Part shown: piece after piece, positions 12,594-31,381 of the stretch
How positions within the stretch are numbered: position 1 is the stretch's first letter
Layout: every line of letters starts with the position of its first letter
Source: Caldimicrobium thiodismutans
GTDB taxonomy: Bacteria; Desulfobacterota; Thermodesulfobacteria; Thermodesulfobacteriales; Thermodesulfobacteriaceae
Direction of reading: 5' to 3'
Length of the DNA stretch: 32,000 bases
Assembly: GCF_001548275.1 (NCBI RefSeq)
Contig: NZ_AP014945.1
Span: 840,001 to 872,000, forward strand
Translations under genes and position numbers: made by a program
Notes under the pieces: generated by a model
What the model saw: the letters and a program-made list of their open reading frames with translations, nothing else
Told to the model about the DNA's origin: nothing
Databases searched by the model: none

Positions 12594-12622
12594 AGTTTAG
12601 CCAAATTCTTACCAAAAGTCAA
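12594..12622 (-). promoter_or_regulatory. sigma70-like promoter TTGACT-N17-TAAACT for pilT, abutting the right end of repeat copy C0
   Basis: The minus strand reads CATACAAAATTC TTGACT tttggtaagaatttggc TAAACT. The -35 sits at the same distance from the repeat end as in the other copies. Confidence 0.4.
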
Positions 12623-12627
12623 GAATT

Positions 12628-12749
12628 TTGTATGCCCCCCATATCTTTTGAGAATCTATAGGATTTTTTCTACTACTTCTGTTGTAGGAAAATGAACTTT
12701 TCCCCTTTTTCCACCCTTCCTTTTTCTTTTAAGGATATGAACTTATGTA
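12628..12749 (-). repeat. intergenic repeat family, copy C0 (short form, inverted orientation)
   Basis: 12628-12697 is the reverse complement of the right ends of C1/C3 (gtatgc..catatcttttgaga..ttctactacttctgttgta..aatgaa). 12708-12749 is the reverse complement of the left end (ccacccttcctttttctt.taaggat.tgaacttatg). The central part is absent. Confidence 0.8.
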
Positions 12750-12976
12750 GAATTGTGAGTGTCCTCTATCTTATGGTTAACACTTTTTAGATAGGGCTTT
12801 AGTATCTCTATTGCCTCCTTCAATTTCTTAGAGGCCTCTCTTATAGCTTCAGCAAGAGCTTTACTCTCCTCTTCCTCTTCAGCCCTTTTAGCTAATTCTA
12901 AAAACTCTTGAGCATGTTCCTCAGTATGCTCTACAAAATGTGAGAGAATGTGCAATATTTTGATTAGCTTATCCAT
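12743..12976 (-). CDS. hypothetical 77-aa all-helical protein with an N-terminal His ladder (H-x3-H-x3-H-x3-H)
   Basis: Strong RBS GGAAGGAGG 4 nt before the ATG and a TATAAT box at 13007-13012 (minus strand). Segment HILSHFVEHTEEH. The TAA stop lies inside the terminal bases of repeat C0. Confidence 0.6.
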   Translation of the reverse strand: MDKLIKILHILSHFVEHTEEHAQEFLELAKRAEEEEESKALAEAIREASKKLKEAIEILKPYLKSVNHKIEDTHNST

Positions 12977-13070: not shown

Positions 13071-13095
13071 AAGTTCAGGGCTTTTTGCATAAGTT
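13071..13095 (+). repeat. fragmentary duplications of the repeat left end (aagttcag; tgcataagtt)
   Basis: Short matches to the left terminus lie immediately 5' of copy C1, separated by T-runs. Confidence 0.3.
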
Positions 13096-13111
13096 TTTTT
13101 TTGGTTTTTTT

Positions 13112-13378
13112 TGCATAAGGTCAGATCCTTACAAGAAAAAGGAAGGATGGTAAGAGGTAAGAGGTAAGAGGTGAGAGGTAAGAGGTGAAAATGTGAGAGG
13201 TGAAAGTAGGAGGAGCCCCTTGCGTGCCTGACTAATCCTTACCTGTCTACCCAAGAATATAAAGAACCACATAACAGGCAAACACATAGGATTGTCCCTA
13301 CAAAATACAGGTTCATTTACTTACAACCGAAGTAGGAGAAAAATCTTCTTAAGTCTCAAAAGATATGGACTTATACAA
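13112..13378 (+). repeat. intergenic repeat family, copy C1 (long form)
   Basis: Aligns end to end with 30989-31205 apart from two indels. Left end tgcataaggtcagatccttacaagaaaaaggaagg; right end agtctcaaaagatatggacttatacaa. Confidence 0.85.
13149..13205 (+). repeat. tandem heptamer array (GGTAAGA/GGTGAGA), about 8 units, inside C1
   Basis: Direct reading: ggtaaga ggtaaga ggtaaga ggtgaga ggtaaga ggtgaaa atgtgaga ggtgaaa. Confidence 0.9.
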
Positions 13379-13382
13379 GGGC

Positions 13383-13410
13383 TTGAGTCCTTTAAAAAAA
13401 GTTGTATCTT
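13383..13410 (+). promoter_or_regulatory. promoter TTGAGT-N16-TATCTT carried at the outer edge of C1; probable leaderless queC transcript
   Basis: Homologous to 31210-31237 (TTGATA-N16-TATCTT). The -10 ends 6 nt before ATG 13417 and there is no SD. Confidence 0.4.
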
Positions 13411-13416
13411 TAAAGT

Positions 13417-14082
13417 ATGCAAAAAGAGCTTGCTGTTGTGCTTTTGAGTGCTGGAATGGATAGTGCAGTCTGTGCAAGTGTGGCAAGTCTTAATTTTCGC
13501 CTGGCCCTACTTCATGTTCAATATGGACAAAGAACTGCTTTGAAGGAATTAGAATGTTTTTATAAACTCTGTGCCTATTTTCAGCCTGAGAAAAACTTCG
13601 TTGCCTCTGCTATGTTTCTAAAGGAAATAGGGGCTTCAAGTCTTACAGATGAAAGTAAGCCTATTCCCGAAAAAGAAGAACTCAGTATTCCCTCCACCTA
13701 TGTTCCCTTTAGGAATGGAATATTTCTAAGTATTGCCACAGCCTGGGCTGAAGCAATAGGAGCCACCCGTATTTTTATCGGAGTCAACCAGATTGACTTT
13801 TCTGGATATCCTGATTGTAGGGAATCCTTTCTTAAAGCCTTTAATCAAGCTATTCAGGAAGGCACTAAACCAGAGACCCATATCATCATTGAGGCCCCCC
13901 TTCTTCATCTCAGTAAAAAAGAAATCATACAATTAGGGATACAACTTAAAACCCCCTTTGAACTTACCTGGTCCTGCTATCAAAATACAGAGGTAGCCTG
14001 CGGAAGGTGTAGCTCCTGTAAGTTGAGGCTAAAAGCTTTTGAAGAGGCAAATCTTAAGGACCCCATTCCCTATCAATTATGA
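13417..14082 (+). CDS. queC: 7-cyano-7-deazaguanine synthase
   Basis: N-terminal VVLLSAGMDS PP-loop and C-terminal Zn cysteines (WSCY..CGRCSSCKLR). Confidence 0.9.
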   Translation: MQKELAVVLLSAGMDSAVCASVASLNFRLALLHVQYGQRTALKELECFYKLCAYFQPEKNFVASAMFLKEIGASSLTDESKPIPEKEELSIPSTYVPFRNGIFLSIATAWAEAIGATRIFIGVNQIDFSGYPDCRESFLKAFNQAIQEGTKPETHIIIEAPLLHLSKKEIIQLGIQLKTPFELTWSCYQNTEVACGRCSSCKLRLKAFEEANLKDPIPYQL

Positions 14083-14447
14083 CACGGCTCTTTGAGTGCC
14101 AGAGGTGTGGAGCTTGCTGTCAAGGAGAAAGCACCGTCAGTTTATCTCCGGAAAAGATTGAGGAAATTGCAGAATTTTTAAATCTTTCCAAGGAAGAGCT
14201 TTTTCATAAATATCTAATTAAAAAGGGTAAAAATCGTATAGAAATGAAGACCAAAAATGGGGCTTGCATATTTTATGATAGAAAAAGAAAAAGCTGCCAG
14301 ATTCATCCTGTCAAACCAGAAAAATGTAAAGAATGGCCCTTCCCACCCTCTATCTTTACAGACAAAAAAAACTTTCTTATTATTCAAAATTCTTGTCAAG
14401 GCTTAAAAAAACTTTCTTATGAGGATTTAAAAACTACAAAATCTTGA
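14079..14447 (+). CDS. YkgJ-family cysteine-cluster protein (CxxCxxCC Zn/Fe-chelating domain)
   Basis: FECQRCGACCQGE at the N-terminus plus later Cys residues. ATGA overlap with the queC stop. Confidence 0.7.
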   Translation: MTRLFECQRCGACCQGESTVSLSPEKIEEIAEFLNLSKEELFHKYLIKKGKNRIEMKTKNGACIFYDRKRKSCQIHPVKPEKCKEWPFPPSIFTDKKNFLIIQNSCQGLKKLSYEDLKTTKS

Positions 14448-14460
14448 CAAACTATAAAAT

Positions 14461-15787: not shown

Positions 15788-15801
15788 AGCCTCTCCCCTT
15801 G

Positions 15802-15865
15802 GATAAGTTCATATCCTTACAGGAAAAAAGTTGTCTCTTCTAAAAAGGGATTATGTCCAAAAAAA
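15802..15865 (+). repeat. possible degenerate mini-copy of the repeat (C2')
   Basis: gataagttcatatccttacaggaaaaaag matches the left end and shares the catatcc variant with short copy C0. It is followed by gtctcttctaaaaagggattatgtcc, which resembles the right end gtctcaaaagatatggac. Confidence 0.35.
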
Positions 15866-16260
15866 TGCATAAGTTCAGATCCTTACAAGAAAAAGGAAGG
15901 GTGGTAAGAGGGGAATTAGATATCTATACTAGGGAGATTTTACAAGTCTGAAAGTAACACAGGCAATCTTGCCTGTGGAGGTAAATTACACTCCCATGTA
16001 TGAAAGAACACAGACAAGAATGTCTGTGCTACAACAGATCCACAAAAAAATTCAAGGGGTATAAAATTTTAAACCCCTACTTAAGGAAAGATTTTGCAGA
16101 TCTTTTATCCTTTCTTTCCGAAGGGGAACGGGTATGTGGAGAGATTTAATAGGACATTAGAGGAGTTTTATATGGTATTGGGAAGAAGAGTTATTTGAGG
16201 ATTTGTGTTACGCCCAAAGAAAAGAACCTATAAAGTCTCAAAAGATATGGACGCATACAC
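15866..16260 (+). repeat. intergenic repeat family, copy C2 (expanded form with divergent interior)
   Basis: Left end tgcataagttcagatccttacaagaaaaaggaagggtggtaagagg and right end aaagtctcaaaagatatggacgcatacac match C1/C3. The interior holds one heptamer unit and extra hairpins. Confidence 0.8.
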
Positions 16261-16264
16261 TCCC

Positions 16265-16292
16265 TTGACAATTTTTTTATATTAGTTATTTT
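16265..16292 (+). promoter_or_regulatory. promoter TTGACA-N16-TATTTT for tRNA(CAT), 4 nt beyond the C2 right end
   Basis: Perfect -35 at the family-typical distance from CATACAC. AT-rich -10 lies 18 nt before the tRNA 5' end. Confidence 0.35.
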
Positions 16293-16310
16293 AGTATATA
16301 GTTTTAAAAT

Positions 16311-16384
16311 GGGCCCGTAGCTCAGATGGTTAGAGCCACCGGCTCATAACCGGAAGGTCCCAGGTTCGAATCCTGGCGGGCCCA
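16311..16384 (+). tRNA. tRNA with CAT anticodon: elongator Met, or Ile2 if lysidine-modified
   Basis: Cloverleaf by hand: acceptor GGGCCCG/CGGGCCC, D arm GCTC..GAGC, anticodon loop CTCATAA, T arm CCAGG-TTCGAAT-CCTGG. G1-C72 excludes an initiator. C4-G69 and C5-G68 resemble E. coli tRNA-Ile2. No encoded CCA. Confidence 0.9.
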
Positions 16385-16396
16385 TATAAATAGGGC

Positions 16397-30988: not shown

Positions 30989-31205
30989 TGTATAAGTTCA
31001 GATCTTTGCAAGAAAATGGAAGGGTAGTAAGAGGTGAGAGGTAAGAGGTGAGAGTAGGGGAAACCCTTGCGTGTCTGCCCAATAATATATAAAACATATA
31101 ACAGGCAAACCCATAGGGTTGCCCCTACAAAATACAGATTCATTTACTTACAACAGAAGTAGTAGAAAAATCCTCTTGAGTCTCAAAAGATATGGACGCA
31201 TACAC
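30989..31205 (+). repeat. intergenic repeat family, copy C3 (long form)
   Basis: Aligns with 13112-13378. It starts 22 nt after the MCP stop codon and ends 4 nt before the tRNA-Val -35 box. Confidence 0.85.
31026..31053 (+). repeat. tandem heptamer array, 4 units (agtaaga ggtgaga ggtaaga ggtgaga), inside C3
   Basis: Direct reading. Confidence 0.85.
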
Positions 31206-31209
31206 TATC

Positions 31210-31237
31210 TTGATAAAATTAGAAATTGATGTATCTT
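31210..31237 (+). promoter_or_regulatory. promoter TTGATA-N16-TATCTT for tRNA-Val/rpsF
   Basis: Homologous to the queC promoter through tgTATCTTTrAAG. The -10 ends 16 nt before the tRNA 5' end. Confidence 0.4.
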
Positions 31238-31253
31238 TGAAGATTGAGGGTAT

Positions 31254-31325
31254 GGGCGGTTAGCTCAGGGGTAGAGCGCCATCCTCACACGGTGGATGTC
31301 GGAGGTTCAAATCCTCCACCGCCCA
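31254..31325 (+). tRNA. tRNA-Val (anticodon CAC)
   Basis: Acceptor GGGCGGT/ACCGCCC, D arm GCTC..GAGC, anticodon stem CCATC/GGTGG with loop CTCACAC, T arm GGAGG-TTCAAAT-CCTCC. No encoded CCA. Confidence 0.9.
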
Positions 31326-31381
31326 TTTCACTCCTTGCTCCTAAAAATTTAGGGGCCAAAAAGACCAGAAGGAGGGTAAAC

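What the first reader, a model, noticed from the sequence alone, without database searches (positions are those of the whole stretch)
13112..13410. Dispersed intergenic repeat family with conserved ends, long and short forms, and a built-in outward promoter
The same sequence recurs at 12628-12749 (minus, short), 13112-13378, 15866-16260 and 30989-31205, with a degenerate mini-copy at 15802-15865. Shared left end: T(G/A)(C/T)ATAAGTTCA(G/T)ATCCTTACAAGAAAAAGGAAGG. Shared right end: AGTCTCAAAAGATATGGACGCATACA(C/A). By eye the termini are weak inverted repeats; GCATAAGTTCAGATCCTT versus the reverse complement GTATGCGTCCATATCTTT matches at about two thirds of positions. In every clear copy a -35-like hexamer (TTGACT, TTGAGT, TTGACA, TTGATA) follows 6-7 nt after ATAC, so the unit carries a promoter pointing outward into pilT, queC, tRNA(CAT) or tRNA-Val. 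The two short forms share a CATATCC variant where the long forms have CAGATC. That suggests the short form spread as its own lineage rather than arising by independent deletions. No transposase gene is in the window. Candidate explanations are a non-autonomous MITE/PATE-like element, a mobile promoter cassette, or a multicopy sRNA gene.
Basis: seen in the sequence. Interest (0 to 1): 0.7.

Follow-up and report, generated by a model that had tools for sequence, protein, structure and literature searches.

The report
Decayed IS481 transposon copies beside promoters
The repeats are worn-down and internally deleted copies of an IS481-type jumping gene in a hot-spring Caldimicrobium, and nearly every copy sits about 5 bases upstream of a host promoter (especially tRNA promoters); the promoter belongs to the host, not to the repeat.

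Summary
The window holds four copies (12629-12749 minus, 13112-13377, 15866-16259, 30989-31204) and a degenerate stub (15800-15865). They share TG...CA imperfect inverted ends.

They are non-autonomous, MITE-like deletion derivatives of an ISKpn28-like IS481-family insertion sequence.
- Copy 15866 keeps a transposase C-terminal remnant.
- The right end itself encodes the transposase C-terminus, K-I-W-T-H-T.
- An ~850-nt degenerate copy in a sister strain joins the same left end, the HTH region, the DDE core and the same right end.
- No intact transposase was found.

A strain 99.4% identical in the flanking DNA carries an extra copy between the CxxCxxCC gene and fur. It is flanked by a 5-bp duplication (AAATC). 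The window holds the empty site, AAATC|TTGACA.

So the -35 hexamer belongs to the target. The "built-in outward promoter" reading is wrong.

Of 17 independent right ends, 16 lie 4-6 nt (13 exactly 5) upstream of a TTG-type -35, always in the same orientation. Six of seven tRNA genes sampled are occupied.

No Rfam match supports an sRNA. The CATATC variant is not a short-form lineage marker.

It is unresolved whether the promoter-adjacent placement reflects targeting or selection.

The parts
12629..12749 (-). Short copy (121 nt). IRL is at 12749 and IRR at 12629. The interior is a deletion derivative of the 13112/30989 type.
   Evidence: The 5-bp direct repeat AATTC lies at 12754-12750 and 12627-12623.
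12594..12622 (-). Host promoter of pilT (TTGACT-17-TAAACT), 6 nt beyond the IRR of the short copy.
   Evidence: promoter scan.
13077..13111 (+). Left flank of copy 13112. AGGGC (13077-13081) equals the 5 nt after the right end. A partial extra left end (TGCATAAGTT, 13086-13095) and T-runs follow.
   Evidence: direct reading. How this arose is unexplained.
13112..13377 (+). Copy of 266 nt: IRL, a (GGTAAGA/GGTGAGA)n heptad array (13149-13186), a hairpin region, and IRR.
   Evidence: The orthologue in the sister strain differs by 14-nt and 27-nt indels and an IRL SNP.
13378..13410 (+). AGGGC spacer plus the host promoter of queC (TTGAGT 13383-13388, 16-nt spacer, TATCTT 13405-13410). The ATG is at 13417.
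   Evidence: direct reading.
14439..14449 (+). Unoccupied target site AAATC|TTGACA upstream of fur. It is filled by a 249-nt copy with an AAATC duplication in locus L024 (2190-2438).
   Evidence: The site is also empty in L023 and L025.
15800..15865 (+). Degenerate stub: a left-end-like sequence (TGGATAAGTTCATATCCTTACAGG) preceded by CTCCC, which equals the 5 nt after the right end of copy 15866.
   Evidence: (I9).
15866..16259 (+). Long copy (394 nt): IRL, a nested two-hairpin module (15939-16056), a hairpin at 16056-16077, a transposase remnant, and IRR.
16115..16259 (+). Remnant of the IS481-family transposase 3' end (FPKGNGYVERFNRTLEE..., then frameshifted ...EEELFEDLCYAQRKEPIKSQKIWTHT running through the IRR).
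   Evidence: translation. (only Pfam hit is rve_3, E=0.004). (94% identity to L140 positions 1934-2072). (related fragments hit NF033577 with E from 3e-11 to 1.6e-17).
16260..16292 (+). CTCCC spacer plus the host promoter of tRNA-Met (TTGACA 16265, 16-nt spacer, TATTTT ending at 16292). The tRNA is at 16310-16385.
30989..31204 (+). Copy of 216 nt, same type as 13112. Left flank CTCTC against right flank CTATC (4 of 5).
31205..31237 (+). CTATC spacer plus the host promoter of tRNA-Val (TTGATA 31210-31215, 16-nt spacer, TATCTT 31232-31237). The tRNA is at 31253-31326.
   Evidence: direct reading.

Best explanation
The repeats are decayed and internally deleted (MITE-like, non-autonomous) copies of an insertion sequence of the IS481 family. 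Its nearest named relative is ISKpn28. The host is a Caldimicrobium (Thermodesulfobacteriota).

Reconstructed parent element (inferred from the fragments):
- IRL is TGCATAAGTTCAGATCC...
- A ribosome-binding site and ATG lie about 45 nt inside the left end.
- One HTH + DDE(rve) transposase gene follows.
- Its reading frame stays open through IRR. The sequence ...AAG ATA TGG ACG CAT ACA encodes K-I-W-T-H-T.

The derivatives keep both ends and have lost most or all of the gene. Some acquired unrelated interior modules (hairpin units, heptad repeats).

Shown: insertion creates a 5-bp target duplication.

Shown as a pattern: copies lie with IRR 5 (4-6) bp upstream of a sigma-70-type -35 hexamer (consensus C|TTGACA) of a host gene that reads away from the element. 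tRNA genes are strongly over-represented. The promoter is host DNA. With the 5-nt spacing, the TGA inside TTGAC is the in-frame stop of the transposase frame.

Inferred, not shown: the placement reflects target choice by the transpososome. This could work, for example, through recognition of a TTGACA-like motif that resembles the TTGAGA / TTACAA motifs about 18-24 nt inside both IRs, or through tethering to RNA polymerase. Survival of insertions that leave the core promoter intact would reinforce the pattern.

The family now looks largely or wholly inactive, because no intact transposase was found.
For: Repeat family and ends.

Coding remnant in copy 15866.

Other copies that read through as ORFs:
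- P0001 is ...FPKGNGYVERFNRTLEESFIWYWEEELFEELCYAQRKEPIESQKIWTHTST*.
- P0013, P0016 and P0024 add TDNGSEF...GNGYVERFN and ...YNGERP....
- Their best NCBIfam hit is NF033577, IS481 family (E from 3e-11 to 1.6e-17).

L140 positions 1229-2074 form an ~850-nt degenerate copy. It holds the same IRL, an ATG, a frameshifted HTH region, the DDE core and the same IRR.

Nearest intact protein:
- P0017 scores 235 bits against NF033577, above the cutoff of 224.
- P0017 is the ISKpn28 transposase.
- ISKpn28 ends (TGTGTAAGTTCA... and ...GGACCCATACA) share their tips with this family. Its ORF also ends ...WWTHT at the IRR.

Insertion polymorphism with a 5-bp duplication and an intact pre-existing TTGACA.

Target rule:
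- 16 of 17 independent right ends have TTG at offset 4-6 (binomial p about 3e-19).
- At least 11 have TTGA at exactly offset 5 (p about 1e-19).
- A diverged copy in another Caldimicrobium MAG shows ATACA-N6-TTGATG.

tRNA bias: 6 of 7 tRNA genes in the sampled loci are occupied.

Target duplications are perfect or 4 of 5 in 6 of 12 two-ended copies (p about 4e-5).
Against: - No intact transposase of this lineage was found. A search of 5.8 billion clustered proteins and a search of 1.84 billion representatives returned only fragments of 68-144 aa. Trans-mobilisation cannot be demonstrated.
- Paralogous copies differ by 6-8%, while the strains that differ by the extra copy are about 0.6% apart in the flanking DNA. 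The polymorphism may therefore be a precise loss or a recombined allele rather than a recent jump.
- About 5 of 12 copies lack a recognisable duplication. Three have unexplained partial extra left ends.
- Position and orientation bias could come from selection rather than targeting.
- The extra loci were fetched through ORFs called inside copies, so copy density is biased upward. Apart from the sister-strain extra copy, they come from one metagenome population, so they are not phylogenetically independent. The flank rule also holds for copies that were not the handles.
- Six ISKpn28 loci show no TTGACA next to IRR, so the rule is not a trait of the wider clade.
Confidence: 0.85

Rival explanations
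1. Mobile promoter cassette: the unit carries its own outward -35/-10 and installs a promoter in front of pilT, queC and the tRNA genes.
For: A TTGAnn hexamer follows every right end in the window. Copies 13112 and 30989 stay similar past the right end through the -10 (TGTATCTTT[A/G]AAG; family D1, direct reading).
Against: The empty site in the window, L023 and L025 already contains AAATC-TTGACA and its -10. The filled site in L024 duplicates only AAATC. The 5-nt spacer differs in every copy and often matches the left flank. Sequences downstream of the hexamers are unrelated among most copies.
Confidence: 0.04
2. Exapted promoter-upstream module: the copies began as transposon insertions, but the IRR-proximal 25-30 nt (A-tract AAAAGATATGG at about -60 to -50) is now kept by selection. 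It would serve as a UP-element substitute or factor-binding site for tRNA and other strong promoters. This adds to the best explanation rather than excluding it.
For: Six of 7 tRNA promoters carry the same sequence at the same distance. Several copies have a well-kept right end with a degenerate or absent left end (L138 8302, L139 17076, L148 14368). Left flanks are often A- or T-runs, as expected if the insertion split a native UP element from the core promoter.
Against: In two-ended copies the left end is at least as conserved as the right (mean pairwise identity 0.89 against 0.80-0.83). Solo or partial left ends also exist (L139 15837, window 13086, L137 4314). No expression data are available.
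Confidence: 0.25
3. Random insertion plus purifying selection. The element has little target specificity. In a compact 1.8-Mb genome, only insertions just upstream of a core promoter, in the orientation that does not disturb it, have survived.
For: The nearest intact relative, ISKpn28, shows no TTGACA next to IRR in six loci. All observed copies are intergenic, and insertions into genes would be lost.
Against: Selection alone should tolerate many intergenic positions, such as between convergent genes or further upstream. Yet 13 of 17 ends sit at exactly 5 nt and 16 of 17 within 4-6 nt of the hexamer. The same register recurs in a diverged subfamily in another MAG. This precision is typical of target recognition.
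Confidence: 0.15
4. Multicopy small-RNA gene or cis-regulatory RNA family.
For: The copies fold better than shuffled sequence (z -3.6 and -3.3). Internal hairpins show G-C to A-T differences between paralogous units (direct reading).
Against: There is no Rfam match at gathering threshold or at E<=1. The interiors are non-homologous between subtypes, while only the transposon ends are shared. Protein-coding remnants of a transposase are present. The folding excess is expected from terminal inverted repeats and nested hairpins.
Confidence: 0.03

Closest known systems
ISKpn28 (IS481 family; 1096 bp; Klebsiella/E. coli plasmids)
   Same: - The transposase type is the same: HTH plus rve DDE with the motif ...NG.VERFNRTL.E...
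- The C-terminus ...W-T-H-T is encoded by the right inverted repeat, and the ORF is open through the end.
- The IR tips are shared: TG(T/C)(G/A)TAAGTTCA at the left and GGAC(C/G)CATACA at the right.
   Different: - The remnant and ISKpn28 share only about 55% identity over a 33-residue stretch.
- Beyond roughly the first 14 nt the ends are unrelated.
- ISKpn28 is intact and active on plasmids. The Caldimicrobium lineage is seen only as fragments.
- Six ISKpn28 loci show no TTGACA 5 nt beyond IRR.
Bacterial MITEs (e.g. Correia/NEMIS elements of Neisseria, RUP, Nezha, Chunjie) - from my own knowledge of the literature
   Same: They are short non-coding derivatives with terminal inverted repeats and target duplications, present in many intergenic copies. 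Their interiors are partly unrelated to the parent IS, and their closeness to genes can affect expression.
   Different: - Here the parent family is IS481. In my paper searches I found no description of IS481-derived MITEs with this behaviour.
- Insertion is in a fixed register and orientation next to the -35 hexamer.
- The element does not itself supply the promoter, unlike what is reported for some Correia elements.
IS481/IS1002 of Bordetella (type members of the family) - from my own knowledge
   Same: Same family. They have TG-type ends, short target duplications (6 bp, NCTAGN for IS481), and effects on neighbouring gene expression.
   Different: Their target is a short palindrome and is not promoter-linked. 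They affect expression through outward promoters in the IS. Here the promoter is host-encoded.
Ty3 / Dictyostelium TRE5-type retrotransposons and S. pombe Tf1 (functional analogy only; from my own knowledge)
   Same: Integration occurs at a fixed short distance upstream of transcription units, with strong enrichment at tRNA genes or promoters. These are 'safe-haven' sites that spare coding sequence.
   Different: Those are eukaryotic LTR or non-LTR retroelements tethered by Pol III or Pol II factors. This is a bacterial DDE insertion sequence, and tethering is not shown.

Membership tests
IS481-family insertion sequence (derivative of) | Single transposase with an N-terminal HTH and an rve-type DDE core matching the IS481 model (NCBIfam NF033577) | tested here: met
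   Fragments P0013, P0015 and P0016 hit NF033577 best (E 3e-11, 1.6e-17, 1.7e-13), ahead of IS3, IS30 and IS21. They fall below the full-length cutoff because they are fragments. L140 1229-2074 shows HTH-like, TDNGSEF and GNGYVERFNRTL segments in order between the family's two ends. The window remnant alone gives only rve_3, E=0.004.
IS481-family insertion sequence (derivative of) | Imperfect terminal inverted repeats with TG...CA tips | tested here: met
   TGCATAAGTTCAGATCCTT against the reverse complement TGTATGCGTCCATATCTTT matches at 13 of 19 positions (direct reading). The tips are shared with ISKpn28.
IS481-family insertion sequence (derivative of) | Short direct target duplication (4-15 bp according to my memory of ISfinder) | tested here: met
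   A 5-bp AAATC duplication is seen in the filled/empty pair. The duplication is perfect or 4 of 5 in 6 of 12 two-ended copies (p about 4e-5).
IS481-family insertion sequence (derivative of) | An intact autonomous copy exists | tested here: not met
   Three word-indexed searches of 5.8e9 protein clusters and one exhaustive HMMER search of 1.84e9 representatives returned only 68-144-aa fragments of this lineage. The longest DNA copy (L140) is frameshifted and truncated by the contig end.
MITE (non-autonomous miniature inverted-repeat element) | Short (about 100-500 nt), no functional transposase, terminal inverted repeats, target duplication, many dispersed copies | tested here: met
   Copies are 121-456 nt. 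There are 17 independent right ends in about 104 kb, though the sampling is biased. IRs and duplications are as described above.
MITE (non-autonomous miniature inverted-repeat element) | Ends shared with a cognate full-length IS that can mobilise it | tested here: inconclusive
   Both ends are shared with the ~850-nt degenerate copy L140. No intact transposase source was found.
MITE (non-autonomous miniature inverted-repeat element) | Evidence of mobility (presence/absence polymorphism) | tested here: met
   L024 2190-2438 is filled. Window 14439-14449, L023 and L025 are empty. The direction (gain or precise loss) is not resolved.
   The empty site retains TTGACA and the downstream -10.
PATE / IS200-IS605-type element | No terminal inverted repeats or target duplication; subterminal hairpins; insertion 3' of a tetra- or pentanucleotide; TnpA(Y1)/TnpB relatives | tested here: not met
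   IRs and a 5-bp duplication are present, and the coding remnants are rve/DDE.
Known RNA family (Rfam 15) | Match to a covariance model | tested here: not met
   Only the two tRNAs pass the gathering threshold. Nothing in the copies reaches E<=1.

The most novel reading that the evidence does not exclude
This IS481 lineage has, or had, a dedicated promoter-targeting mechanism. The transpososome would recognise the sigma-70 -35 element directly or through RNA polymerase/sigma. It would integrate in one orientation 5 bp upstream of it, with a marked preference for tRNA promoters. That would make it a bacterial DDE-transposon counterpart of Ty3/TRE5 'safe-haven' integration. The inserted right end would then replace the native UP region and tune promoter output across the tRNA gene set.
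Probability: 0.3. Interest if true: 0.8.

Novelty: new variant of a known kind. Interest (0 to 1): 0.55.

Why it matters
Fixed-register, orientation-specific insertion of a single-gene DDE insertion sequence next to promoter -35 elements is not a behaviour I know for IS481-family elements. My paper searches did not turn it up either.

If it reflects targeting, it gives a simple bacterial system for studying how a transposase reads a promoter or RNA polymerase. It would also show how a genome tolerates occupation of nearly all tRNA promoters.

On the practical side, these copies generate spurious ORF calls (P0001-P0012, 'hypothetical proteins') and contig breaks in Caldimicrobium assemblies. 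They could also be mis-annotated as promoter-bearing repeats or sRNAs.

Tried and rejected
- **Genome-contig scan.** I scanned with the right-end pattern TCTCAAAAGATATGGN{3,6}ATAC. It returned 22 single chance hits in unrelated taxa, so the source genome is not represented.
- **Metagenome-contig scan.** I scanned with the left-end pattern. It returned 111 chance hits. Three were plant copia-type coding sequence (GDKNKFISLKEK).
- **Paper search for the assembly or sample identifiers.** Nothing found.
- **Parent transposase by protein search.** Only fragments came back.
- **Exact-protein look-ups.** The window MCP and P0016 are not on record, so I could not compare the 30989 locus across strains or read the C. 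thiodismutans genome directly.
- **sRNA idea.** No Rfam hits. The folding z-scores do not discriminate.
- **Selective retention of the right end only.** Not supported by the comparison of end conservation.
- **Palindromic target, as for IS481's NCTAGN.** Rejected: the left flanks show no GTCAA-like mirror of TTGAC (direct reading).
- **Partial extra left ends as insertions into the IRL pseudo-target ATCC|TTACAA.** The expected leftover of the older copy after the new IRR is not there.
- **Whether ISKpn28 shares the promoter rule.** It does not, in six loci.

Full report
**1. The observation**

- The repeat finder recovered the shared left end at 13112, 15866 and 30989.
- It recovered the shared right end at 13339, 16221 and 31166.
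- It recovered the inverted short copy at 12639-12752 and the stub at 15803-15828.
- A five-way alignment shows the same ends around unrelated or partly related interiors.
- nhmmer profiles built from the ends score every copy at E from 1e-8 to 4e-16 and find no further copy in the window.

Refined limits are 12629-12749 (-, 121 nt), 13112-13377 (266 nt), 15866-16259 (394 nt), 30989-31204 (216 nt), and a degenerate stub at 15800-15865.

The ends are imperfect inverted repeats with TG...CA tips (13 of 19 matches by direct reading). A TTGAnn hexamer follows each right end, and the two tRNA genes lie downstream as stated.

**2. What the units are**

*A transposase remnant in the window.* Six-frame translation of copy 15866 gave FPKGNGYVERFNRTLEEFYMVLGRRVI* at 16115-16198. 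This is the region around the catalytic glutamate of rve-type DDE transposases. The only Pfam hit was rve_3 (E=0.004 on 17-20 residues).

*The source is missing from the big DNA collections.* Pattern scans of both collections gave only chance hits. I therefore used exact-protein look-ups and ORFs that gene callers had placed inside copies as handles.

*Sister contigs.* QueC led to three contigs at 99.4-99.8% identity (in the flanking DNA for L024): L023, L024 and L025.

*Another short copy read as an ORF.* A search with the remnant found P0001. It is a 76-aa 'hypothetical protein' that reads through another short copy...HKFRSLQEKG...FPKGNGYVERFNRTLEESFIWYWEEELFEELCYAQRKEPIESQKIWTHTST*. So the right inverted repeat (AAG ATA TGG ACG CAT ACA) encodes the C-terminus K-I-W-T-H-T of the parent's transposase.

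*Related fragments and the nearest intact protein.* An exhaustive HMMER search with P0001, plus a search with a composite, returned only fragments of 68-144 aa. Several are annotated Caldimicrobium.
- The fragments add TDNGSEFLGEF...GNGYVERFN and ...LIWYNGERPHSGL....
- Their best NCBIfam model is IS481 (NF033577, E from 3e-11 to 1.6e-17).
- The nearest intact protein is P0017. Its 346-aa unit passes NF033577 (235 bits against a cutoff of 224).
- P0017 is the ISKpn28 transposase of Klebsiella plasmids.
- ISKpn28 (1096 bp) has ends TGTGTAAGTTCACACAG... and ...GGTGGACCCATACA. Its ORF ends ...WWTHT at the very tip without a stop codon. It therefore shares the tips and the coding arrangement with this family.

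*A near-complete degenerate copy.* L140 positions 1229-2074 come from the same metagenome assembly as L024. In order, they carry:
- the family's left end, with an RBS-like AAGGAAAGGTGG and an ATG about 45 nt in;
- a frameshifted HTH region (...FEVSRATIYRLRKDFKDSGGRLESL...);
- the DDE core;
- the family's right end, where the contig stops.

This ties both ends of the window repeats to one IS481-type element. The window copies are its internal-deletion derivatives.

*Interiors and host.* The 13112, 30989 and 12629 types, and the long 15866 type, also carry interior modules that L140 lacks: heptad repeats and hairpin units. Unrelated filler of this kind is usual for MITEs. The organism is a Caldimicrobium close to C. 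thiodismutans, because P0005 is identical to THC_1342.

**3. Mobility and the promoter question**

*An extra copy in a sister strain.* L024 carries a 249-nt copy between the CxxCxxCC gene and fur that the window, L023 and L025 lack.
- Filled: ...CTACAAAATC[TGCATAAGTTCACC...GGACGCATACA]AAATCTTGACAAACT...
- Empty (window 14430-14455): ...CTACAAAATCTTGACAAACT...

Only AAATC is duplicated. The TTGACA and its -10 were already there. This refutes the built-in promoter reading and shows a 5-bp target duplication.

*The flank rule.* I collected 17 independent right ends: 4 in the window, 1 new in L024, 2 in L137, 4 in L138, 3 in L139 and 3 in L148.
- 13 have ATACA-N5-TTG.
- 2 have N6.
- 1 has N4-5.
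- 1 is followed by a different repeat.

The chance of 16 of 17 is about 3e-19. In every case the hexamer is followed by a plausible -10 at 16-18 nt and by a gene on the same strand. These genes are pilT, queC, fur, ribBA, a DAHP synthase, serS, bioY, purK, a DUF488 gene and six tRNA genes.

*tRNA genes.* Of the seven tRNA genes in the sampled loci, six have a copy in this position: Met, Val, Pro-GGG, Ser-CGA, Ala-GGC and Pro-UGG. Only tRNA-Phe does not.

*Other support.*
- A diverged copy in another Caldimicrobium MAG shows ATACA-CTACTC-TTGATG.
- With the N5 spacing, the TGA within TTGAC is in frame with the transposase (P0001 ends ...THTST*). The target therefore supplies the stop codon.
- Target duplications are perfect in three copies (AAATC, AATTC, AAGCC) and 4 of 5 in three more, out of 12 two-ended copies (p about 4e-5).

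**4. Limits and open points**

- No intact transposase of this lineage was found.
- Paralogous copies differ by 6-8%, whereas the strains differ by about 0.6% in the flanking DNA. The fur-site polymorphism may be an old segregating allele or a precise loss rather than a recent jump.
- Apart from the sister-strain extra copy, the right ends come from one metagenome population, and the loci were fetched through copies. Density is therefore biased and the sample is not phylogenetically independent.
- Three copies (13112, 15866, L137B) are preceded by partial extra left ends. In two of these, the sequence matching the right-flank pentamer lies upstream of that partial end (AGGGC at 13077-13081, CTCCC before the stub at 15800). 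I could not reconstruct the events.
- Copies 13112 and 30989 stay similar beyond the right end through the -10 (family D1). This is unexplained.
- The locus of the short copy 12629-12749 is structurally different in the sister strain, where other repeats intervene and two contigs break.
- The orthologous 13112 copy differs between strains by two heptads, a 27-nt indel and the CAGATC/CATATC base.
- Targeting versus selection is not settled. Left and right ends are equally conserved, which argues against selective retention of the right end alone. Six ISKpn28 loci lack the rule, so it is not a clade-wide property. The exact register, however, argues for target recognition.

**5. Comparison with what is known, and verdict**

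The family is a derivative of an IS481-family IS. The transposase type, IR tips and duplication all fit, but no autonomous copy was found. It also fits the operational definition of MITEs.

It is not a PATE, not an Rfam RNA and not a promoter-carrying cassette.

The unusual feature is the fixed-register, single-orientation placement next to -35 hexamers, together with near-saturation of tRNA promoters. My paper searches found no description of this for IS481 elements or bacterial MITEs.

I rate it a new variant of a known kind. Interest is moderate (0.55). It would rise to about 0.8 if active promoter targeting were demonstrated.

Noticed in passing
L024 1-440; L139 4457-4720 and 9695-10024 (rc); L140 1144-1223; L138 7187-7234 (none in the window): A second dispersed repeat ('family 2', about 260-330 nt, 74-86% identity between copies). 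It always abuts an end of a family-1 copy. It contains TTGACA-15-TAAAAT and a hairpin GAGGCATTA(A/T)GCCTC. Its nature is unknown: another MITE or a small RNA gene.
   Followed up: partly
L145 1-606; L138 17684-17930: The end of a third repeat or IS ('family 3', 98% identity between the two places). In the sister strain it interrupts the homologue of window copy 12629-12749. It also truncates the copy that encodes P0026 after ...GNGYV.
   Followed up: no
window 15939-16056; L137 2361-2596; L147 1128-1264 and 9997-10105: A nested hairpin module made of two ~50-nt units, AAAGTAACACAG(G/A)CAA-N3-4-TG(C/T)CTGTG, with a G-C to A-T compensatory difference between units. It is tandemly duplicated in L137. 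In another organism's 1.9-Mb contig it occurs without family-1 ends, fused to ORFs that end like restriction-modification methylase C-termini (P0008-P0011). It looks like an independent REP-like repeat captured by the MITE.
   Followed up: partly
window 13149-13186 and 31027-31054: Heptad array (GGTAAGA/GGTGAGA)n just inside the left end, derived from the RBS/start region of the parent IS. The sister strain has two heptads (14 nt) fewer at the orthologous copy.
   Followed up: yes
window 13378-13415 vs 31205-31242: The two promoter regions downstream of copies 13112 and 30989 remain similar beyond the element end (shared TGTATCTTT[A/G]AAG around the -10). This is not explained by the 5-bp duplication model. 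Gene conversion or co-mobilised flank are possibilities.
   Followed up: no
window 13405-13419: The queC start codon lies 6 nt after the predicted -10 (TATCTT), with no Shine-Dalgarno sequence. The mRNA is probably leaderless.
   Followed up: no
window 16040-16077 (minus strand): Terminator-like hairpin GGGGTTTAAAATTTTATACCCC followed by TTGAATTTTTTT on the minus strand, inside the long copy. It is conserved in the other long copies (L024new, L137A, L138c, L139b, L148a).
   Followed up: no
L138 18126-18185 (minus strand): The tRNA-Phe promoter (GCCCCC|TTGACT-17-AAATAT) directly follows the hemerythrin gene stop and carries no copy. It is the one unoccupied tRNA promoter among the seven sampled.
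   Followed up: yes
L138 7225-8235: A 336-aa Transposase_31 (YhgA/Rpn-like, PF04754) gene sits between two family-1 copies that precede tRNA-Ser and tRNA-Ala. Another fragment of that family is at L149 16431-16817. No link to family 1 was established.
   Followed up: no
L147 (GCA_017880035.1, contig JAEDZT010002815.1): The NCBI record that supplied L024, L140 and L145 is a multi-organism metagenome assembly. It also holds a 1.9-Mb contig of a different organism, with MmeI-type RM, Piwi/SIR2 and HEPN-MNT genes near the hairpin module. 'Sister strain' here therefore means a co-assembled population, not an isolate.
   Followed up: partly
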